DNA of 64,000 nt from an uncultured Thermoplasmatales archaeon (lineage in GTDB: Archaea > Thermoplasmatota > E2 > DHVEG-1). The stretch lies in NCBI GenBank assembly GCA_964597365.1, contig CAZQXW010000007.1:2268-66267 (forward strand). Reading direction: 5' to 3'. The translations under genes and the position numbers were made by a program. Positions 2,804-42,946 of the stretch are shown here, piece by piece (the stretch's first letter is position 1; each line of letters begins with the position of its first letter). The notes beneath the pieces are model-generated. The model saw nothing but the letters and a program-made list of their open reading frames with translations. It made no database searches and had not been told where the DNA came from.

Positions 2804-3198
2804 TCCACCCCTGCCCTCCGTAAGTAGCCACGCAGCACAACAAAATTGCCTTTTCTCTTGTGACTCTTCCTGCCTACCTGAAGCATCACCTCCTCCAGAA
2901 AAGTTCCCGTGTTAGGTAAGTATTGCTTCATCTTCCAAGGAAACTGTTCTTGAATACTGAATCCCGCAATCGAATCCATTTGCACAATCTCAGCGAACAG
3001 ACTCACTCGATTCAGTTTATAGACGTGCTCCAACGGTCGCGCTTCCCCCCGCACTGCGCGATACACACGAACAAGAACATCGGCTGCATCTTCGTCCGCG
3101 CTCTTCCACAAACCAAGACACCCTTCAACCTCTATGAAGTCTTGCTCTCTCCGTGCAGCCTTTTCTTTGTTTATTCTTCTCCGAACACTCATCACCAC
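2782..3198 (-). CDS. hypothetical protein
   Basis: Packed ORF. Confidence 0.55.
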   Translation of the reverse strand: MVMSVRRRINKEKAARREQDFIEVEGCLGLWKSADEDAADVLVRVYRAVRGEARPLEHVYKLNRVSLFAEIVQMDSIAGFSIQEQFPWKMKQYLPNTGTFLEEVMLQVGRKSHKRKGNFVVLRGYLRRAGVEWTSDQP

Positions 3199-35651: not shown

Positions 35652-36749
35652 TCAGCGGGATTTTCTTACAACAGATTTGATGTCCAGCCGATCCACACCT
35701 TTCCGCTCTTCCAATCGAGTCTGATCCTTCTCAGTTCCTCGGATCATCTTGTCGATTCCCTTACTCCGAGCCATACCGCTCAAGAGCAGATGAACCTGCA
35801 TCTCGTTAATCCGAGAATTGTAGTAGCTGGTACGGATCACGGAGGGAGCGTGCCGAGTAGCCTTGCTTACCGCAGCAAAGACCTCCTCCACAAAATCCCC
35901 TATCCACGGGCGCTTCTGCCACATCATTGGCACCCCTATCGAGACAACGTATTGCTTGGTTGTCTTGATATCGAGAGAACCAAAGATCAAGCTCGACTCA
36001 CGAATAGCTCGCATAAGCCCGCCGTCCTCGGTTACCCGATCCGGGAACACCATACGGCGAAGGTCGATGTAGCCGTTCTGAGCGAAGAGAATCCTTCGAA
36101 GGTCATTCGCGTCGAGAGCCTTGTATCCCGAGGAGACATCAATGAAATCGCTGAACCGCTCCAGCTGCGTAAGCATGTAGAAGCGTTTTAGACTGGTAAC
36201 AATTCCAGCGTTGACACTGCCCCAGTAGTTACCGTCCCCTCTCCCGTACCGCTGCATACAGAAGTCGTTATCGATGAGCATGGTCGATATGCGCTCTTTC
36301 TGGATGTACTCTTTGACCAGACGGTCAAGCCCTTCTAAAGCGTTCGGCTTCGTTGGGAGACCTTCTCGCTTCTCTGGCAACGTGTAAATCACCAGAACAC
36401 GCTTTTCCTCAGCAAGCAGACAGTCAAGCACCGGAAACAGGAACCCTGTACCGGCTCCCCCACCACCCCCAACACAGACCAGAACAGTCTTGGCTGAAGG
36501 AAAATCCTTTCGCTGGTGTAGAAAGTCTACGATCTTCTGGTACTCATTTCGGGCGGCCATCTCCCCAAACTTCGGGTCTCGGCCGGTACCTCCATGTTCG
36601 AACACCAGACGCTCGTATCTACCGAACCCCATGTGTGCAAAGTCGATACCAGCAAGGTTCATCACCACGGCGGGCGATCCCATACCTTCCTTGACCGCTT
36701 TCGCAATGCGACCACCACCCTGACCCAGCCCTATTACGAATTCAAACAT
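35652..36749 (-). CDS. tubulin/FtsZ-family GTPase (TubZ/PhuZ/CetZ-like)
   Basis: IGLGQGGGRIA (T1), GGTGRDPKFG (T3), GGGGGAGTG (T4 signature), TLPEKREG (T5), LIDND (T6), ALDAND (T7). Confidence 0.92.
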   Translation of the reverse strand: MFEFVIGLGQGGGRIAKAVKEGMGSPAVVMNLAGIDFAHMGFGRYERLVFEHGGTGRDPKFGEMAARNEYQKIVDFLHQRKDFPSAKTVLVCVGGGGGAGTGFLFPVLDCLLAEEKRVLVIYTLPEKREGLPTKPNALEGLDRLVKEYIQKERISTMLIDNDFCMQRYGRGDGNYWGSVNAGIVTSLKRFYMLTQLERFSDFIDVSSGYKALDANDLRRILFAQNGYIDLRRMVFPDRVTEDGGLMRAIRESSLIFGSLDIKTTKQYVVSIGVPMMWQKRPWIGDFVEEVFAAVSKATRHAPSVIRTSYYNSRINEMQVHLLLSGMARSKGIDKMIRGTEKDQTRLEERKGVDRLDIKSVVRKSR

Positions 36750-37566
36750 TGAACTTCTCCTTAAAGAAGGCAATCACCCCTTCCAACCCTTCAACCACGG
36801 CCTTCGCCGTCGACTTATTGTTCTTCACAACCGTCGGGGAGAGGTTGGTAGCCATGAGAGGAGAAAGCTCCTTGAGGTCTTTCTTGATGATGTCGAGAAC
36901 CTTCTTAATTGACTCGGTCTCGCTGATCTCCTTTCGAAGAGCCGCCTGCTGCTTCTTGAGGTCCTTGAGCTTGGCCTCTTCTTCCTCGGTGAGATTCGAC
37001 TGACTTTTGAGCTTACCAACTTGCTCGGTCAGGCGCTCGATTTCAGCGTTCATCTCGCGCTCCATCTCATCATGGGTGTCGTCGGCTATCTTGGTGACCT
37101 CCTTGATCTTCTTGTTAAGCTCATCCTCGGTGTAGAGCTTCTTAGACGGCTCTGGGTCCTCGACAACCGCCTCTTCGGTCCCGTCGGAAAGCAACGCAAT
37201 CGCCCGACGGAGCGAGGGCAAATCGGCAACGCGTTGCCGATTTCGAGCGGCACGCATGTAATTCCGAGCCTCGCTCTCACCAAACGGAAGGTTCTCCTTG
37301 ATCCACGGAATCCACTCACCGTGCTTGAGTTCTTCCTTCTGAGCGATTAGCTCATTCCCGATCTCAATGAAAATGGGAGTAAGCTCCTCAACCGCCTTAC
37401 CAGCGATCCCCTCAGCCTTCTCATACAGCTTGTTGATCTTGTCTGCCCGAGAGACGGCCTTCGGTTTCTGAGAAGTCTTGCGCTTGGTTGCTGCCTTAGA
37501 CGCCTTTTCCGGCTCCGGGGAGAATACCTCTACCCCTTCAACACTCTTCGACTTTGAACTCGCCAT
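36742..37566 (-). CDS. DUF3102 domain DNA-binding protein with C-terminal coiled coil
   Basis: IEIGNELIAQKEELKHGEWIPWIKENLPFGESEARNYMR. Confidence 0.8.
   Translation of the reverse strand: MASSKSKSVEGVEVFSPEPEKASKAATKRKTSQKPKAVSRADKINKLYEKAEGIAGKAVEELTPIFIEIGNELIAQKEELKHGEWIPWIKENLPFGESEARNYMRAARNRQRVADLPSLRRAIALLSDGTEEAVVEDPEPSKKLYTEDELNKKIKEVTKIADDTHDEMEREMNAEIERLTEQVGKLKSQSNLTEEEEAKLKDLKKQQAALRKEISETESIKKVLDIIKKDLKELSPLMATNLSPTVVKNNKSTAKAVVEGLEGVIAFFKEKFNV
37211..37244. repeat. 34-bp sequence containing a 24-bp perfect palindrome, copy A (inside DUF3102 gene)
   Basis: AAATCGGCAACG-CGTTGCCGATTT at 37220-37243; exact reverse complement of 42848-42881. Confidence 0.95.
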
Positions 37567-38470
37567 AGTATTCCTCCACCTGCTCCGGTGTCATAGAATT
37601 AGGATCGGCCTCCTCGGGCAACTGTACGGTGATAGTGGGGACGTGACGACTCAATGTCGTCAATGCTCCAACACGCTTCTCATCACCGTACATCGCCCGC
37701 TGACCTGCCTCATCACCGTCGTAGCTAAGCACAACGCGCTTAGAGTATCGCCGAAGTTGTAACACCTTATCCGGCGTCATCTCCATCGTCCCCATGTTCG
37801 CTACAGCGGCAATCCCGAACTGTTGAAGGTAGATCGCATCGAACTCACCTTCTACGACAACGGTACATAATCGTATTCCCGGCCACTTTCTTACAGCCTG
37901 TCTCATTCCAAACAACGTTCGGTGTGGAGACCTGCTCTTCTTTGTCTTCGGAAGCATCCCTTTGGGAATGGCTCTTCCTACATAGGAAACCAGCTTACCT
38001 TCCGGGGTGTAGATCGGGATCACCACCCGGTCATGATACTTACGAACACCCACTCGCATATCAAACTCTCGGATCATCTGAGGAGAGATTCCCCGACCCA
38101 TCACATACTCCCACGCAGGAGAGCCTTCGACCACCTTCGGATAGATTTTATGGAACGACTTCACATTGAAGTACTTGAACGTATCCTCATCTTCATGAAG
38201 GTGCTTTCGAATCCGATTCTCCATATCGAGTACGGAGTCATCCTGTCGGGTTAGACGCCACGCAGAATAGTTCGAGATGTCGAGAGCCTTAGCGAGAAAG
38301 TCGGCAAGCGAGCCCTCTTCCTGACAAGCAAAGCACTTGAAATATCCCGTGTCCGCCCAGATTCCACAAGAGGGAACAGTGTCCTCATGGAACGGGCATA
38401 GAGCCATCAACCGCTTCCCGTGATCCTCGTACTCGATGTCGTTGTCTTGCAGAATCTGCTCAACATCCAT
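37538..38470 (-). CDS. dnaG: DNA primase (CHC2 Zn finger + TOPRIM)
   Basis: CPFHED...CFAC; VVEGEFD; YDGDEAG. Confidence 0.92.
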   Translation of the reverse strand: MDVEQILQDNDIEYEDHGKRLMALCPFHEDTVPSCGIWADTGYFKCFACQEEGSLADFLAKALDISNYSAWRLTRQDDSVLDMENRIRKHLHEDEDTFKYFNVKSFHKIYPKVVEGSPAWEYVMGRGISPQMIREFDMRVGVRKYHDRVVIPIYTPEGKLVSYVGRAIPKGMLPKTKKSRSPHRTLFGMRQAVRKWPGIRLCTVVVEGEFDAIYLQQFGIAAVANMGTMEMTPDKVLQLRRYSKRVVLSYDGDEAGQRAMYGDEKRVGALTTLSRHVPTITVQLPEEADPNSMTPEQVEEYYGEFKVEEC

Positions 38471-38471
38471 C

Positions 38472-38807
38472 TCAACCCTCGATATCCTCATCCAAATCAG
38501 ATTCCGTGAACTCTTCTTCCGACATGATCAACGAAGATACCATAGAAAGAATCTCGCTCCGGGTGTTCTCATTCACCCCCGAGCTATCCATGACGGTTAT
38601 GAGCCCTTCAGTAAGGTCTTCAAGCGCGATGAGTAGGTTCTCAAGAATCGTCACCGATGCAATGTCAAACTGCCACCGGGCAATACACCCAGAAACGGCG
38701 GTCCTCAGCTTTGGGTCGGGTATAGCCTCTGCGTAATCTTCAGTCGTCATCGGAAAGATGTCTGCCGGGTAAGGATTTCTCGGCCACCAATATGGTATGT
38801 TACTCAT
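38472..38807 (-). CDS. hypothetical protein
   Basis: Packed between helicase and primase. Confidence 0.6.
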   Translation of the reverse strand: MSNIPYWWPRNPYPADIFPMTTEDYAEAIPDPKLRTAVSGCIARWQFDIASVTILENLLIALEDLTEGLITVMDSSGVNENTRSEILSMVSSLIMSEEEFTESDLDEDIEG

Positions 38808-40318
38808 GATTTCCTCCTTTGCCTTGGCTTCGGTTTTGTCTTCCGAGCCTTTCGCTCCATCTCAACTACATTATCTTTGAGGTCCGCCAACGACGCAGTC
38901 TTCTTGACCTCCTCATGGAGACGCATAATTGACAGGTTCGGAGTCAGACGGATCGGTCTTGTCGGCACATCAGCGTTACGCATCTTAATCACCTGTAGCT
39001 TCATCCGACCCTCAACCAAATCCTTGTCCGTCTGAATGAGCGCAATGATCACCGGCGCTGCTTCGCTGATCGCCCGTGCGTACTTTGCATCCTGCGCATC
39101 GTACAATTCCTTATCATAGGCATCATCACGTACCTGACCTGCCGTCCAGCCCCCAATGTTCCGGTCCGAGCATAGCCCCTTGAAATCCCAAACCGCCTCT
39201 GACTGATCTTTAGCATCGCTACGTCCTCGCGTAACTGGGTCCACAATATTGATGTAATCGAGAAAGACCGCGCCAAGTTTCTCTCCGGTCTCCTCCTCGA
39301 TCCGGGTCATATCTCGATCCAGATCATCGATGGTAAACCGTCTCGGATAGCTGGCTATGTAGAACCTATTATCCTTCATAGCTCGGTACTGGATGATCGT
39401 GTTCTCCCACTTTTTGTAATCTTCTTCAGAAAGCTCTGCCGTCCTGAACTTCATGCCGGGGATTCTGGTAAGTCTTGCATCCACCCGAAAAGCAAGCTCT
39501 TCAATAGACATCTCTCCAGAACCAACAAACACATTATGCCCGTGTTCCCACGCATTCGCCGCAAACTCGATCAGCCCCGCTGTCTTACCTACCCCAGTCA
39601 CTCCGAGTATAACCCCGAACTCTTTTGGCATGAGACCGCCTGTAAGACGGTCGAACATAGGTATTCCTGTATGGATACCCACCTCACCATCTTCACTCGC
39701 ATCGACCGCCTGCTCCTTCTCCCGCATAACCTCAACGCGACGGTCATAATGCTCCAAGTAGTCGACCGTATTTTCGGTATCATTCAACCGAGCTTCCCGA
39801 GCCACTGACAAGAGTTTGGTCTTTGCTGACTGCAAATCGAACTGACGTATAGTACCAATCACCTGTCCACAAGCTTTGAGCACCCGTCTCGATTCATAAA
39901 GGTTCAACAGTTGGGACATCATATGCCGAACGGTCTTCTCATTGATCGGAGCAACGTTCACCTCGAACAACTGGTCAAGAGCTTCCTCAAATAATCCCCG
40001 CTCCTTCTGGGACATCAATCCCCGGCTCTTCAACTCATTCAAGATCATTGCCCGAGACAACACAATCCGAAGATCGCTGGCTACATCAAACACATCCTGT
40101 AAGAGGATGTCAGAAAACCACAACTTCTCGACCATACCTAACACAGAAGGGTTTTCCCGAATACCGTAAGCAAGGAGTTGATACTCGATCTCAGGGTCCC
40201 TGAAGTCTGCTGCCCTTTCTTCGATGTCTTTGTCGATAGGCTTACTGTTGCTTGGCTTTTTCCCAGTCAAGGGTTTCCTCCTGCTGTTCCCTATCTCGCA
40301 GAATGTTAGCGGATTCAA
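38804..40318 (-). CDS. dnaB: replicative DnaB-like helicase
   Basis: GVTGVGKT, SGEMS, VFLDYINI, TAGQV, KMRN. Confidence 0.92.
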   Translation of the reverse strand: MNPLTFCEIGNSRRKPLTGKKPSNSKPIDKDIEERAADFRDPEIEYQLLAYGIRENPSVLGMVEKLWFSDILLQDVFDVASDLRIVLSRAMILNELKSRGLMSQKERGLFEEALDQLFEVNVAPINEKTVRHMMSQLLNLYESRRVLKACGQVIGTIRQFDLQSAKTKLLSVAREARLNDTENTVDYLEHYDRRVEVMREKEQAVDASEDGEVGIHTGIPMFDRLTGGLMPKEFGVILGVTGVGKTAGLIEFAANAWEHGHNVFVGSGEMSIEELAFRVDARLTRIPGMKFRTAELSEEDYKKWENTIIQYRAMKDNRFYIASYPRRFTIDDLDRDMTRIEEETGEKLGAVFLDYINIVDPVTRGRSDAKDQSEAVWDFKGLCSDRNIGGWTAGQVRDDAYDKELYDAQDAKYARAISEAAPVIIALIQTDKDLVEGRMKLQVIKMRNADVPTRPIRLTPNLSIMRLHEEVKKTASLADLKDNVVEMERKARKTKPKPRQRRKS

Positions 40319-41051
40319 GTATGTGAGAGTTCCAATAATCTACCTCAGAATCCAATCGAGACATCCAATCAGCTGACTGTGTGTTCCGATAGTCCTCCCC
40401 CAACAGAGCAAGAAAGCGCAGATGTCCTCGAAGCATTGACATCGTAGATTCGCCAAACATCTTCGTTAAATCTTCCTCAGAAAGATTCGTACAGATGATA
40501 AAAGCAACCCCACGACTGATCATTCTACGAACGAACTCCTCCAGAGTCTTTGAAACGAAGTTCGAGTTCTGGGCGATGTACACCTTATCCAACTCATCCA
40601 GTAGGAGAATCTCTCCCGACTCATACTCTTCGAGAAGCTCGGTGTCCTTCGCCTTCACCGCCTCAACGTATTGCTGAGCCGTGAAGTACTGAACGGAATA
40701 CCCTTTCACAATCGCACGCTTTCCTATAGCGCACTGCAACGAAGTCTTCCCTCGACCATTAGGACCCATGAACAGAATCCCCAGAGACTTCTTCGTAGCG
40801 GCCCGAAGCTTGTCAGTGTAGTGCTTAGATACCGCAACAACACTCTTCGGCTTGACCTCGGTAAGGTCGTCAAAAGAAAGCTCCCAGTACTCAGTAGGAA
40901 TCTTGGATTCGATCAGGAAGTTCAGATAGTGTTGGATGATCCGGCAATCACACAGATTCCCATCAACCAACCCAGAACCTCCACACACCTCACACTGATC
41001 AACAAGCTCCTCTCTGAGGTCAACCATGCGATCAAGAATCTTTCTTCGCAT
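40242..41051 (-). CDS. DnaC/IstB-like helicase loader ATPase
   Basis: CEVC..C.C Zn; GPNGRGKT; LLLDELD; ICTNLS. Confidence 0.85.
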   Translation of the reverse strand: MRRKILDRMVDLREELVDQCEVCGGSGLVDGNLCDCRIIQHYLNFLIESKIPTEYWELSFDDLTEVKPKSVVAVSKHYTDKLRAATKKSLGILFMGPNGRGKTSLQCAIGKRAIVKGYSVQYFTAQQYVEAVKAKDTELLEEYESGEILLLDELDKVYIAQNSNFVSKTLEEFVRRMISRGVAFIICTNLSEEDLTKMFGESTMSMLRGHLRFLALLGEDYRNTQSADWMSRLDSEVDYWNSHILESANILRDREQQEETLDWEKAKQQ

Positions 41052-41814
41052 TTATCCTCTCCAGTTCTGCGGTAAGCACCTTGTCTTGCTCCTCCACCAA
41101 ACGGCGGTAACCGTCATCGTTCTCCAGATTGCTGGAAGTATTCAAGTAGGAGTCTGTCTTTCCTTCAAGTTCTTCATCCTTGAACTCCTCCACCATCGCC
41201 GGGTACAGAAACAGACCGTAGTTGAACTTCTTCCGAGGGTACTTATTCACTCGGTACCACTTGCAGTACTTATCAAAGTCAACCTCATCCATCAGCTGGA
41301 TCAGTTTTGAAAACCCGTGGTGCTTTGTAAGAAATACTGGGTTGATCTTATTCTTTGGAAAGTACTTCAAGAGGATAGCTTCTGCTTTCTTCCAATCCTC
41401 ATCCTCAAGAATATCCTCCAGAGACCAGTTTCTTCCCTTTCCTCCAGTGGAGGATTTTTCCAAATTGATATCGCCCGGTCCCTCTTTCTTCTTATTCTCT
41501 TCTCTTCTAATATTGTAAGAGTCATACAAGATTAGAATAGACTGGGCGATATCAATTTGGAAAATATTCTTTACCTCAACAACAATTCTCCTGCCTTTTT
41601 TGTGGGTGGTGGTGATAAACCCGGTCCTCTCCAAGGTGTCTCGGGCAGCTTTGATCGTGTGCGGGCTCCTGATATTGGTACCCTCTTTGATCTCAGCCAT
41701 CGTAGGAGCATCCTGTCCATGGTCTTCAAAGTAGCTGAATAGAACTAACAATTCGAAGTGCTCAGATTCTACCGCAAGCTCTCTCAGCAATGTTCGGGTC
41801 TTGGACGAGATCAA
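41032..41814 (-). CDS. probable replication initiator
   Basis: N-terminal winged HTH (PTMAEIKEGTNIRSPHTIKAARDTLERTGFI), directly upstream of loader and helicase, internal IR + AT-rich tract. Confidence 0.6.
   Translation of the reverse strand: MISSKTRTLLRELAVESEHFELLVLFSYFEDHGQDAPTMAEIKEGTNIRSPHTIKAARDTLERTGFITTTHKKGRRIVVEVKNIFQIDIAQSILILYDSYNIRREENKKKEGPGDINLEKSSTGGKGRNWSLEDILEDEDWKKAEAILLKYFPKNKINPVFLTKHHGFSKLIQLMDEVDFDKYCKWYRVNKYPRKKFNYGLFLYPAMVEEFKDEELEGKTDSYLNTSSNLENDDGYRRLVEEQDKVLTAELERINAKKDS
41456..41564. other. candidate replication origin: 25-bp inverted repeat around AT-rich 59-bp spacer
   Basis: TTTTCCAAATTGATATCGCCCGGTC ... GACTGGGCGATATCAATTTGGAAAA (24/25); spacer 17/59 GC. 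Confidence 0.6.
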
Positions 41815-42173
41815 AGTAAATCCTCTTCTGCCGATATGGATGGAGGAGCCTCCTGCGGAATGAATACAGGAGCGTCTATGTCTGTGCTTGAGCTTCTTCG
41901 TCTTCGAGGGTTCTGGTACATTCCGCTGAATGAGGTGTACACCAGATTCTCAGCAGTACCTTTACCGATCCGAGGATCGTGCTCTACCAAAGCCCGAGCA
42001 GCCTGTCGCTTGTTCATACCTTCCAGAAGACAGTCTTCAAGAAACTCAATCCTCTGCATAGTAAGCGTCATACTGTTGCGGTCTTCCTGATACGCCTCCC
42101 CGAGTTCGTTAATGTCCTCCAAGGAGCGAGAGTCTATAACCTGTTCTATTGCCTGTCGGAGTCGTTTTGTCAT
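41811..42173 (-). CDS. hypothetical protein
   Basis: Packed ORF. Confidence 0.6.
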   Translation of the reverse strand: MTKRLRQAIEQVIDSRSLEDINELGEAYQEDRNSMTLTMQRIEFLEDCLLEGMNKRQAARALVEHDPRIGKGTAENLVYTSFSGMYQNPRRRRSSSTDIDAPVFIPQEAPPSISAEEDLL

Positions 42174-42192
42174 TGCGTACCTCTACGGTACA

Positions 42193-42777
42193 TCATCGTA
42201 CAGGAGCAAGATTTCTTACAGCATCTGCGTTGAAAACTCGACTTCGGATCACATATAGATAGTTGGTAGTAACGCCCAGTTCTTCTGCTGCTTCTTTCGT
42301 TGAATAACCTTTCCGCAGAAGCCGGAACCAACGAAAAGCCACAACGTATTGTGCGGCCTTTTCTGCTTCGGCTTCAAGAGATTTCTCGATCCGGTCAAGC
42401 GCATCGGATACTTCAATCTCTTCAAATCCGGGATCGTGTGCGAAGTACTTCTGTACGATCCCTTGGTATACCGGGTCGTCGCTATCGATTGAGTTTGGAT
42501 CAAATCTCATGATCGATTCGTTGAAGGGTAGCTTTCGGTATCTACCATCTATCAAGTGCCCATACTTCGATTGAGCCGCTGACTTGGCAAATACAAGAAA
42601 GCTCGTTTTGTCGTCGTATTTGGGGAGAGCTTTGATGACGGCTTCCCATAACTCCTGTTCAGCGTCCTCTTTATCCATCGTGTGAGGAAACCTGCGAGCC
42701 AACTTGTTTGCTTGGATTCCGATAAATGCTTTGAGGTCCTCATTCTCGAAGACTTGTGTACAGACTGAACTTGACAT
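42193..42777 (-). CDS. RNA polymerase sigma factor (sigma70-family, ECF-like)
   Basis: DKEDAEQELWEAVIKALPKYD region 2; YSTKEAAEELGVTTNYL region 4 HTH. Confidence 0.8.
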   Translation of the reverse strand: MSSSVCTQVFENEDLKAFIGIQANKLARRFPHTMDKEDAEQELWEAVIKALPKYDDKTSFLVFAKSAAQSKYGHLIDGRYRKLPFNESIMRFDPNSIDSDDPVYQGIVQKYFAHDPGFEEIEVSDALDRIEKSLEAEAEKAAQYVVAFRWFRLLRKGYSTKEAAEELGVTTNYLYVIRSRVFNADAVRNLAPVR

Positions 42778-42809
42778 GGCATCCTACCTCCATAAAGTTG
42801 TTCTACTAA

Positions 42810-42838
42810 ATCTTAGCAGATCATGCCAGTTGTGTCAA
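42810..42838 (-). promoter_or_regulatory. sigma70-type promoter of replication operon
   Basis: TTGACA (42833-42838), 17-bp spacer, TAAGAT (42810-42815). Confidence 0.75.
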
Positions 42839-42847
42839 GTTGTATTT

Positions 42848-42881
42848 GAAATCGGCAACGCGTTGCCGATTTGCCCTCGCT
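42848..42881. repeat. 34-bp palindrome-containing sequence, copy B (10 bp upstream of -35)
   Basis: Palindrome 42849-42872; inverted copy of 37211-37244. Confidence 0.95.
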
Positions 42882-42882
42882 T

Positions 42883-42946
42883 AAAAATGGGGTGACCCGC
42901 CGAAACGAGCCACCCCGGAGAAGAGAAGAGACGCCTCCGAAGAGGC
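42883..42946 (-). terminator. terminator of late/lysis transcript
   Basis: CGCCUC-UUCG-GAGGCG then GGGGUGGC...GUCACCCC-AUUUUU. Confidence 0.7.

What the first reader, a model, noticed from the sequence alone, without database searches (positions are those of the whole stretch)
37211..42881. Identical 34-bp palindromic site inside the DUF3102 coding sequence and just upstream of the replication-operon promoter
Seen: perfect 24-bp palindrome AAATCGGCAACGCGTTGCCGATTT at 37220-37243 (encoding NRQRVADL right after the DUF3102 core) and at 42849-42872, with 10 further flanking bases identical in inverted orientation. Copy B sits 10 bp upstream of the TTGACA. I noticed no other copy. Inference: a protein-binding site carried within the gene of its likely binder (autoregulation, roadblock or centromere), with site and protein segment evolving together.
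Basis: partly seen in the sequence, partly recalled or inferred. Interest (0 to 1): 0.75.

Follow-up and report, generated by a model that had tools for sequence, protein, structure and literature searches.

The report
DNA-binding gene carrying its own site
A phage gene for a DNA-binding protein of unknown function (DUF3102) has that protein's probable docking site, a 24-base palindrome, written into its own coding sequence; the same arrangement runs through a very large, unstudied protein family, and this phage has copied the site to two control regions.

Summary
The 24-bp palindrome occurs at 37220-37243 (inside the DUF3102 gene) and at 42849-42872 (between a terminator and a promoter), within a 34-nt inverted repeat. 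A third exact copy lies 5.2 kb beyond the window, in the same phage.

The in-gene copy is not a local oddity. Across about 45 independent DUF3102 lineages the same codon position holds an element with 11-bp arms and a 3-5-nt centre. The arms change by compensatory substitutions. The left arm is read in all three frames and the right arm always encodes V-A-D-L, so the nucleotides are conserved, not the peptide. In the structure model the encoded residues form a low-confidence linker.

Three residues of one helix just upstream covary with arm positions 7, 8 and 10 (Arg with G, Gln with C). They are the top three associations in an unbiased scan and survive a tree-based control.

Most likely the palindrome is the protein's own duplex binding site. 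The tubulin-like and ParA-type neighbouring genes and the promoter-proximal copies suggest a combined operator and centromere role like KorB. No binding data exist. Rivals are a hairpin element, an origin and an invertible segment.

The parts
37220..37243 (.). Copy A: perfect 24-bp palindrome inside the DUF3102 coding sequence. It encodes the last base of R108, N109-D115 and the first two bases of L116. This is the family-wide primary copy of the element.
37211..37244 (.). 34-nt arm of the inverted repeat shared with copy B: 9 nt AGCGAGGGC, the palindrome, then C.
42849..42872 (.). Copy B: the same palindrome in the spacer between a terminator and the promoter of the sigma-like/replication operon. 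It is lineage-specific and absent at the equivalent place in L190-L193.
42848..42881 (.). Second 34-nt arm of the inverted repeat. It is an inverted copy of the gene segment that encodes R-N-R-Q-R-V-A-D-L-P-S-L.
36742..37566 (-). DUF3102 gene (274 aa): Lys-rich disordered N-terminus, helical domain (residues 40-108), linker encoded by the palindrome, C-terminal coiled coil (147-272).
37243..37278 (-). Codons for helix E97-R108 (ESEARNYMRAAR), the putative recognition helix. R101 (residue X), N102 and S98 are the columns that covary with arm positions 7, 10 and 8.
35652..36773 (-). Tubulin/FtsZ-like GTPase gene whose start overlaps the end of the DUF3102 gene. The pairing is kept in L007, L190 and L191.
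42810..42838 (-). Promoter-like site TTGACA-17-TAAGAT with TG extension, 10 nt downstream of copy B.
42889..42916 (-). Intrinsic-terminator-like hairpin plus T-run, ending about 10 nt before copy B.
37538..42777 (-). Operon bracketed by copies B and A: sigma-like factor, small ORF, wHTH initiator-like protein, DnaC/IstB-like loader, DnaB helicase, small ORF, DnaG-type primase.

Best explanation
The palindrome is the cognate duplex-DNA binding site of the DUF3102 protein itself. The protein has an N-terminal helical, helix-turn-helix-like domain and a C-terminal coiled coil that probably makes it a dimer. Its site, with two 11-bp arms and a 3-5-bp centre, is written into the DNA that encodes the flexible linker just after the binding domain. 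Protein and site therefore travel and diversify as one cassette. In this phage the site was also copied to two intergenic control regions. Copy B lies between a terminator and the promoter of the sigma/replication operon. Copy 3 lies upstream of the portal (late) operon.

I commit to a KorB/omega-like double role. Bound dimers modulate transcription at these points, through an operator upstream of the -35 and a roadblock or autoregulation within its own operon. They also mark the genome for the NTPase encoded next door, which is a tubulin/FtsZ-like GTPase here and a ParA-type ATPase in other elements.

Shown: nucleotide-level conservation, compensatory change, helix-to-base covariation, and the gene neighbourhoods. 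Inferred: binding itself, dimerisation, and both downstream roles.
For: (a) Nucleotide-level selection. In 136 loci chosen by the protein motifs HGEW..W and ARNYM, not by the palindrome, the same codon position holds 24-30-bp palindromes. With the peptide held fixed and synonymous codons resampled, 13/13 or 12/13 pairs are seen in 13 lineages against null means of 4.5-6.5, and no resample of 3000 reached the observed value.
(b) The element is 25, 26 or 27 nt long, so the left arm is read in phase 2 (K-S-A-T), phase 1 (N-R-Q-x) or phase 0 (E-N-G-N-S), while the right arm always gives V-A-D-L.
(c) Covariation: 90.2% of cells are paired against 24-49% when the partner is slid. 7 of 11 pairs change on both sides (52 cells), and 0 of 500 shuffles reach this. 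L007 has the compensated pair C8>A / G17>T, which changes Q>K and A>S.
(d) The encoded residues sit in a low-confidence linker of variable length.
(e) Protein-site co-evolution. Helix residue X = Q goes with C at arm position 7 in 22/22 lineages, and R with G in 17/19. A scan of all protein columns against all arm positions ranks three residues of this one helix first (z = 24.4, 11.0, 8.5; next best 6.8). On a tree built without X or the palindrome-coded residues, both characters need 9 changes, with switches between sister lineages. None of about 45,000 simulated independent characters reached the observed 39/41 concordance; the maximum was 35. The rule is replicated at the protein level in 85 further cluster representatives: Q with C 74/74, Q with G 0.
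(f) The centre tetranucleotide is self-complementary in 15 of 31 members of the 26-nt class (1/16 expected), which is two-fold symmetry through the centre.
(g) Copy B lies in a spacer between a terminator and a promoter, where little transcription is expected.
(h) Extra copies in other lineages sit at control regions: upstream of integrase genes in G005, G017/G019 and G022, and between late genes in G010.
(i) Partners: ParA-type ATPase genes overlap the DUF3102 start in G005, G017, L115, L145, the L. kobayashii plasmid and LE1. A tubulin-like gene follows it here and in L007, L190 and L191.
Against: No binding experiment exists for any DUF3102 protein; only 3 papers mention the name. The domain has no significant fold match in the PDB, so 'HTH' rests on secondary structure only. 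The distance between half-sites varies by 1-2 bp, which a rigid dimer would not tolerate. The covarying helix lies only 8-25 codons from the site, so block transfer by recombination could inflate the count of independent switches, and the tree rests on 70 columns with many unresolved forks. L190 keeps a DUF3102-like gene next to the tubulin gene but has lost the element. L192 and L193 have the tubulin gene with no DUF3102 at all, so the protein is not an obligatory adaptor for this tubulin. Most DUF3102 genes have no NTPase neighbour; a PcfJ-like protein is the commonest one. Copy B is not conserved in sister phages.
Confidence: 0.68

Rival explanations
1. The element works as a folded hairpin in the mRNA or in single-stranded or extruded DNA. 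It could be a translational or stability signal, a priming or single-strand initiation signal next to the primase gene, or a structure bound by some other factor. The duplex sequence as such would not matter.
For: The stem is kept by compensatory changes and the centre is 3, 4 or 5 nt long, like a loop. As single-stranded DNA the element folds at -8.5 to -11.6 kcal/mol, z = -3 to -4.6. The gene adjoins primase genes in this phage and in LR797314.
Against: G7:C20 and C7:G20 give equally stable stems, yet their choice tracks an Arg/Gln residue of the adjacent helix. There is no excess of G.U-type over A.C-type mismatches (13 vs 8) and many mismatches are non-wobble. The centres are often self-complementary and are not stable-loop motifs. 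Copy B sits between a terminator and a promoter. There is no Rfam match. A hairpin that is bound by DUF3102 itself is not excluded; that case would merge with the main explanation.
Confidence: 0.13
2. DUF3102 is an origin-binding protein of the lambda O type, and the dyad in its linker-coding DNA is (part of) a replication origin.
For: The site lies in the linker-coding part of the gene of a DNA-binding protein, as ori-lambda lies in gene O (my own knowledge). oriV likewise lies inside repC in repABC replicons (PMC9040568). The gene sits beside primase or helicase genes in this phage, L007, L190, L191, LR797314 and L012.
Against: There is a single dyad, with no iteron array and no adjacent AT-rich unwinding region. 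This phage already has an initiator-like wHTH gene that contains an origin-like 25-bp inverted repeat around an AT-rich spacer at 41456-41564. In Leptospira plasmids the DUF3102 gene is the partner of parA and a separate rep gene supports replication. The extra copies lie at promoters and integrase genes, not at replication genes.
Confidence: 0.08
3. The two 34-bp inverted copies are recombination sites, and the 5.6-kb replication module between them inverts as a switch.
For: A perfect 34-nt inverted repeat brackets exactly one operon. The phage encodes RecA-like and SbcCD-like proteins.
Against: In most complete relatives the element is single-copy. There is no recombinase gene beside it in this phage. 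Inversion would split the DUF3102 gene and detach the tubulin and RecA genes from their promoter. Neither inverted junction is present anywhere in the assembly, though that is a weak test. Copy 3 lacks the 9-nt flank.
Confidence: 0.03

Closest known systems
Lambda O protein and ori-lambda (lambdoid initiator/origin pairs); my own knowledge
   Same: The binding sites of a DNA-binding protein lie inside its own gene, in the stretch that encodes the flexible linker after the N-terminal binding domain. Site and binding domain change together between lineages, so the gene is a self-contained specificity cassette.
   Different: Ori-lambda has four iterons plus an AT-rich region and fires replication. 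Here there is one dyad, no AT-rich region, no evidence of initiation, and a separate initiator-like gene. There is no sequence or fold relationship.
ParB-parS, including parS inside spo0J of B. subtilis (my own knowledge) and parS sites in or near repABC operons (PMC9040568)
   Same: A palindromic centromere is bound by an HTH protein encoded next to a ParA-type ATPase. The site can lie inside the par genes. DUF3102 occupies the ParB position in LE1, in Leptospira plasmids and in several prophages, and the Leptospira literature calls that gene parB by position (PMC4338851, PMC4140679).
   Different: There is no ParB/Spo0J N-terminal CTPase domain and no Pfam ParB hit. The site is fixed at one codon position across the family, with the left arm read in three frames. 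Most DUF3102 genes have no ParA neighbour.
KorB-OB of IncP-1 plasmids and omega of pSM19035 (my own knowledge)
   Same: One site-specific protein uses the same palindromic or repeated site both as an operator just upstream of promoters and as a centromere for a partition NTPase. The sites are dispersed over the replicon.
   Different: The protein families differ. KorB has 12 sites and omega binds heptad arrays. Here there are one to three sites and the primary one is inside the gene.
TubR-tubC-TubZ type III partition (pBtoxis, pXO1, phage c-st); my own knowledge
   Same: A small DNA-binding gene directly precedes and is coupled to a tubulin/FtsZ-like GTPase gene in a phage or plasmid. The neighbour here matches FtsZ (1.6e-9), TubZ/RepX of pXO1 (3.6e-6) and the phage c-st TubZ chains 3v3t/4xcq (0.002-0.006).
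   Different: TubR is a winged-helix protein that binds arrays of direct repeats upstream of the operon. Here the protein is an all-helical DUF3102 with a coiled coil and its site is a single dyad in the gene. More distant phages with this tubulin lack DUF3102.

Membership tests
DUF3102 (Pfam PF11300) | Match to the family profile above the curated cut-off | tested here: met
   37.4 bits vs cut-off 24.4, residues 65-108. phrog_6146 and phrog_15609 at 1e-16 and 1e-15. The BFVD fold search returns only DUF3102 proteins, including LE1 Orf4.
DUF3102-embedded dyad element (the family-wide element described here) | 11-bp complementary arms (c/gAAAT...ATTTg) with a 3-5-nt centre, ending at the D-L codons after the ARNYM helix | tested here: met
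   The window copy scores 38.2 bits with model R1, E = 4e-6. It has 10/11 outer pairs and belongs to the 26-nt class.
ParB/KorB family | ParB/Spo0J N-terminal (CTPase) domain and ParB-type HTH detectable by sequence or fold | tested here: not met
   No ParB family among the Pfam hits. No PDB sequence hit for the domain profile. No PDB fold hit with E <= 0.001.
ParB/KorB family | Encoded next to a ParA-type ATPase and binds a palindromic site | tested here: inconclusive
   Relatives have a ParA neighbour, but this phage does not. Binding is inferred from covariation only.
TubR (type III partition adaptor) | Gene directly upstream of, and co-oriented with, a TubZ-like gene | tested here: met
   The DUF3102 stop overlaps the tubulin-like start. 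The order is the same in L007, L190 and L191.
TubR (type III partition adaptor) | Winged-helix fold; centromere tubC made of arrays of direct repeats upstream of the operon | tested here: not met
   The models are all-helical with no beta wing, and no TubR chain appears among the PDB matches. The site is a single dyad inside the gene, and no repeat array was found.
Lambda O/ori-type initiator-origin cassette | Binding site located in the linker-coding part of the binder's own gene | tested here: met
   Palindrome-coded residues 109-116 follow helix 97-108 and lie in or next to the segment with pLDDT below 50 (113-121). The linker length varies across the family.
Lambda O/ori-type initiator-origin cassette | Several iterons plus an AT-rich unwinding element; supports replication | tested here: not met
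   One dyad only. Arm-like 11-mers with up to 1 mismatch occur only at the three full sites plus four scattered single hits. Replication itself cannot be tested with these tools.
Known structured RNA families (Rfam 15) | Covariance-model match at the element | tested here: not met
   No match at 37220-37243 or 42849-42872, even at E <= 10.
Tubulin/FtsZ superfamily (for the neighbouring gene) | GTPase domain match | tested here: inconclusive
   Pfam Tubulin scores 31.0 bits, just under the 33 cut-off. PDB sequence hits: FtsZ 1.6e-9, RepX/TubZ 3.6e-6. There are 88 relatives, most with a precomputed PF00091 hit.

The most novel reading that the evidence does not exclude
DUF3102 proteins with their embedded dyad form an undescribed, very large class (over 30,000 clusters at 50% identity) of self-addressed DNA-binding cassettes. 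The recognition helix and its private 25-27-bp site are written 8-25 codons apart in one gene, with the site tolerated in a linker in any of three frames. Specificity therefore cannot be separated from its target by recombination. Mobile elements plug this cassette into different machines: ParA ATPases, a tubulin-like GTPase as in this ~91-kb phage, integrase control and replication modules. It would serve as a universal 'this is my genome' tag, and here it would be a new kind of adaptor for a tubulin-based system.
Probability: 0.3. Interest if true: 0.85.

Novelty: new variant of a known kind. Interest (0 to 1): 0.72.

Why it matters
DUF3102 is a large family: 33,894 cluster representatives at E <= 0.001, found in phages, prophages and plasmids, including Leptospira replicons used as shuttle vectors. 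It has no assigned function and almost no literature. The work here gives it a concrete and cheap test. A defined 26-bp duplex should bind the N-terminal domain, and an Arg/Gln to G:C/C:G specificity switch is predicted.

The element is also an unusually clean case of a coding sequence constrained by a nucleic-acid element, because one arm is translated in all three frames. This bears on how overlapping codes evolve and on gene annotation and recoding.

If the link to ParA and to a tubulin-like GTPase is functional, it defines a new centromere-binding adaptor type shared by two unrelated motor families.

Tried and rejected
(1) DNA similarity to known phages (blastn, 7.4 kb): no match.
(2) A single-protein scan of viral contigs with the full DUF3102 protein found nothing. 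An alignment-based scan was needed.
(3) Distant Leptospira-type members first appeared to lack the motif. A later hairpin and covariance-model search found the element in the L. kobayashii plasmid and the Methylorubrum plasmid, and a degenerate copy just after the LE1 stop codon.
(4) My first scoring used a fixed even centre and missed the 25- and 27-nt classes. This was corrected.
(5) A Walker-A regex for ParA neighbours found only 7 of 95 loci, and Pfam on the neighbours showed PcfJ-like proteins are the commonest. So 'DUF3102 = ParB of a ParA' is not general.
(6) Fold searches were uninformative. The full-length search was dominated by the coiled coil, and the domain alone gave no PDB hit.
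(7) Rfam: nothing at the element.
The assembly holds only the native junctions.
(9) The covariance model with default filters missed the L191 element, which was found by direct scan.
(10) The LE1 partition papers (PMC1151745, PMC94690) are not held.
(11) Chance or a purely peptide-level cause for the palindrome is rejected by the synonymous-codon null and the three-frame evidence.


Full report
OBSERVATION

The 24-bp perfect palindrome AAATCGGCAACGCGTTGCCGATTT is at 37220-37243 and 42849-42872. No other match with up to 3 mismatches exists in the window, and none was expected in 100 shuffles. Both copies are embedded in a 34-nt, 100% complementary inverted repeat at 37211-37244 / 42848-42881.

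Copy A lies in a 274-aa ORF (36742..37566, minus strand). This ORF passes the Pfam DUF3102 cut-off and matches two PHROG families of unknown function. Copy A encodes N109-L116 (NRQRVADL).

Copy B lies in an intergenic spacer. It starts about 10 nt after the T-run of an intrinsic terminator (42916-42889) and ends 10 nt before the -35 of a TTGACA-17-(TG)TAAGAT promoter (42838-42810). That promoter heads the operon sigma-like factor, wHTH initiator-like protein, DnaC-like loader, DnaB, primase, DUF3102, tubulin-like protein.

The window is a phage contig of about 51% GC, binned with an assembly that is otherwise about 33% GC. Contigs C98, C40 and C7 join through 55-nt overlaps into a 90.7-kb scaffold. 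A third exact copy lies on C40, equivalent to window coordinate about -5171. It sits in the 422-bp gap upstream of the portal gene, 20 nt before a terminator. Copy 3 shares only the 26-mer with A and B, not the 9-nt flank.

THE IN-GENE COPY IS A FAMILY-WIDE NUCLEIC-ACID ELEMENT

The nearest DUF3102 homologue (L007; 41% identical, same primase-DUF3102-tubulin order) has AAATCGGAAACGCGTTTCCGATTT at the same codons. It is again a perfect 24-mer, reached by a compensated C>A / G>T pair that changes Gln>Lys and Ala>Ser.

I then collected 136 loci (56 genomes, 80 viral contigs) using the peptide patterns HGEW..W and ARNYM, which do not include the palindrome-coded residues. In these loci the DNA after the ARNYM helix holds 24-30-bp palindromes at the same place, with different inner sequences. 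Examples are CCCAAATCCGCAACCGGTTGCGGATTTGGG, GCAAATTCAACAGCGCTGTTGAATTTGC and CAAATACGACACCGGTGTCGTATTTG.

I held each peptide fixed and resampled synonymous codons from the gene's own usage. 13 lineages show 12-13 of 13 complementary pairs where the null mean is 4.5-6.5, and none of 3000 resamples reached the observed value.

The element comes in three lengths: 25, 26 and 27 nt, made of 11-bp arms with a 3-, 4- or 5-nt centre. The right arm is always read as V-A-D-L. The left arm, with the same nucleotides, is read in phase 2 (K-S-A-T), phase 1 (N-R-Q-x) or phase 0 (E-N-G-N-S). This rules out a peptide-level cause.

On an alignment of 41 distinct elements, 90.2% of cells pair, against 24-49% when the partner column is slid. 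7 of 11 pairs change on both sides (52 cells), and no shuffle of 500 reaches the observed values for cells paired, cells changed on both sides or the covariation score.

The element is also present in four further replicons:
- the ParA-partnered DUF3102 gene of the complete L. kobayashii plasmid, where it is unique in 45 kb;
- the freshwater phage LR797314, also unique;
- a Methylorubrum prophage-plasmid;
- in degenerate form, directly after the stop codon of LE1 orf4.

The family has 33,894 representatives of 50%-identity clusters at E <= 0.001.

WHERE THE ELEMENT SITS IN THE PROTEIN

An AlphaFold2 model (mean pLDDT 77.5) gives helices 40-53, 59-79, 85-92 and 97-108. A low-confidence stretch follows (113-121, pLDDT below 50), then a short helix, a disordered segment, and a long coiled coil (147-272). 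The palindrome-coded residues 109-116 are therefore the start of a linker. The length of this linker varies by up to about 20 residues across the family.

Neither the whole model nor the domain alone has a significant PDB match. BFVD returns only other DUF3102 proteins. 'Helix-turn-helix' is thus an inference from the pattern helix 85-92, turn, helix 97-108.

WHO BINDS THE SITE

Residue X in the helix ...S-E-R-T-A-X-N-Y/F-M... (R101 in the window's protein) tracks arm position 7. Gln goes with C in 22 of 22 lineages and Arg with G in 17 of 19.

To avoid picking the residue by eye, I scored every protein column against every arm position. The three best associations all fall in this helix: X with position 7 (z = 24.4), X+1 with position 10 (Asn-A, Arg-C; z = 11.0) and X-3 with position 8 (Arg-G; z = 8.5). 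The next best score is 6.8.

A maximum-likelihood tree of the domain, built with X masked and the palindrome-coded residues excluded, needs 9-10 joint switches. At least 5 are forced by well-supported branches, and several are between sister lineages: L114/L139, L115/L137, L008/L049 and L039/L060.

I also simulated independent two-state characters on that tree and kept those with a similar number of changes, about 45,000 in total. None reached the observed 39/41 concordance; the maximum was 35.

The rule holds in an independent set of 85 cluster representatives when read at the protein level: Q with C 74/74, R with G 5/7, and Q with G never.

An Arg-to-guanine correspondence along one face of a helix is what a recognition helix in the major groove of duplex DNA produces. 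G:C and C:G are equivalent for hairpin stability, so a pure structure model does not predict this pattern.

Other points favour duplex recognition:
- The centre tetranucleotide is self-complementary in 15 of 31 cases.
- G.T-type mismatches are not enriched over A.C-type (13 vs 8), and many mismatches are non-wobble.
- Copy B lies between a terminator and a promoter.

One point goes against a rigid dimer: half-site spacing varies by 1-2 bp. A flexible linker to the coiled coil could absorb that.

WHAT THE SITE IS FOR

In most complete relatives the in-gene copy is the only one, so it is the primary site. Extra copies occur in a minority:
- this phage has 3;
- G005 has 2 identical 26-mers, the second about 30 nt upstream of a large serine recombinase gene;
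- G017/G019 and G022 have a second, related dyad upstream of a serine and a tyrosine integrase gene respectively, and in G022 it directly follows a terminator;
- G010 has a weaker copy between two late genes;
- L034 has two identical copies, both in frame within the same ORF.

Partner genes are as follows:
- A ParA-type ATPase gene overlaps the DUF3102 start in G005, G017, L115, L145, the L. kobayashii plasmid and LE1. Leptospira papers call this gene parB on position alone.
- Here and in L007, L190 and L191 a tubulin/FtsZ-like gene follows. It matches FtsZ at 1.6e-9 and TubZ/RepX at 3.6e-6.
- The commonest upstream neighbour overall is a PcfJ-like protein (8 of 21), and many DUF3102 genes sit beside replication genes.

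Sister phages give a natural control:
- L191 has its own variant dyad (AAATGCGACTtataGGTCGCATTT; X = Q with C7, obeying the rule) and no second copy within 10 kb.
- L190 keeps a divergent DUF3102 gene without the element.
- L192 and L193 have the tubulin gene without DUF3102.
- All four keep the terminator-promoter junction upstream of the sigma-like gene, but without a palindrome there.

Copy B is therefore a recent, lineage-specific insertion of a 34-bp piece of the gene. This explains the extra 10 identical bases.

I conclude that the protein-site pair is a portable cassette and that its sites are occasionally seeded at control regions. For this phage I favour a KorB/omega-like double use: an operator upstream of the replication-operon promoter and near the late operon, a roadblock or autoregulatory site within its own operon, and a mark for the tubulin-like GTPase. 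I put the adaptor role on its own at only about 35%, because the tubulin exists without DUF3102 in relatives.

RIVALS

A hairpin element in RNA or single-stranded DNA remains possible (0.13). An origin of the lambda O type is less likely (0.08), because this phage has a separate initiator-like gene with an origin-like structure at 41456-41564 and the dyad has no iterons or AT-rich region. The assembly contains only the native junctions.

COMPARISON AND NOVELTY

Sites inside the binder's own gene are known: ori-lambda in gene O, parS in spo0J (both from my own knowledge), and oriV in repC with parS sites in or near repABC operons (PMC9040568). Dual operator/centromere proteins (KorB, omega) and TubR-TubZ pairs are also known.

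What is new relative to the literature:
- the family (DUF3102 is named in only 3 papers, none functional);
- the fixed position of a single covarying dyad in a linker read in three frames;
- the helix-to-base specificity code;
- the association with two different motor types.

Earlier notes of this scan report the same DUF3102-palindrome theme in other genomes. They are unchecked AI notes and I did not use them as evidence. One later check had objected that the reading helix was not singled out and that no phylogeny-corrected test existed. supply both.

I rate this a new variant of a known kind, with interest 0.72.

Noticed in passing
window 41456-41564: A 25-nt inverted repeat (96% complementary) around a 59-nt spacer, inside the wHTH initiator-like gene 41032..41814. 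It looks like an origin embedded in the initiator gene. It gave spurious miRNA-precursor hits in Rfam.
   Followed up: partly
whole assembly (C7, C40, C98 vs the rest; C13): The window's contig and C40/C98 are about 51% GC in an assembly that is otherwise about 33% GC. They join by 55-nt overlaps into a 90.7-kb phage scaffold, so the phage is probably mis-binned or infects another host. C13 (46 kb, 47% GC) overlaps itself by 55 nt and is probably a separate circular element.
   Followed up: partly
L034 9924-9949 and 10152-10177: Two identical 26-nt copies of the element lie in frame within one DUF3102 ORF, 228 bp apart, so the peptide SNPSALTDL occurs twice (residues 15-23 and after the helix domain).
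   Followed up: partly
G005 39021; G017 17456 / G019 18299; G022 (L187) 5335: The second dyads lie 30-100 nt upstream of integrase genes: the serine type in G005 and G017, the tyrosine type in G022. In G017, G019 and G022 the inner arm bases differ from those of the in-gene copy. This suggests control of integrase expression, or a second specificity.
   Followed up: partly
L014 (Leptospira phage LE1) 1540-1565: A degenerate copy (GAAAAAGGAAACGCGTTGCCGATTTC) follows the TGA stop of orf4/DUF3102 directly and would read KRKRVADF in frame. Its right arm is identical to the window's. The element appears to have ended up outside the ORF in this phage.
   Followed up: no
L192 and L193 (relatives with 54% and 41% identical tubulin-like protein): The tubulin-like gene follows the primase gene with no DUF3102 gene. 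L193 has a 76-aa ORF in that position, which might be a different small adaptor.
   Followed up: no
C40 (L004) 2825-3010, i.e. about 5.1-5.3 kb before the window start: A weak promoter-like site (2825-2853) and a terminator (2981-3004) bracket copy 3. A transcript of about 150 nt carrying the palindrome is therefore conceivable.
   Followed up: no
P0005 (hit): A DUF3102-like N-terminal segment (49% identity over 26% of the query) is fused to a phage N6-adenine methyltransferase domain (PF05869). The binding module is thus reused to target an enzyme.
   Followed up: no
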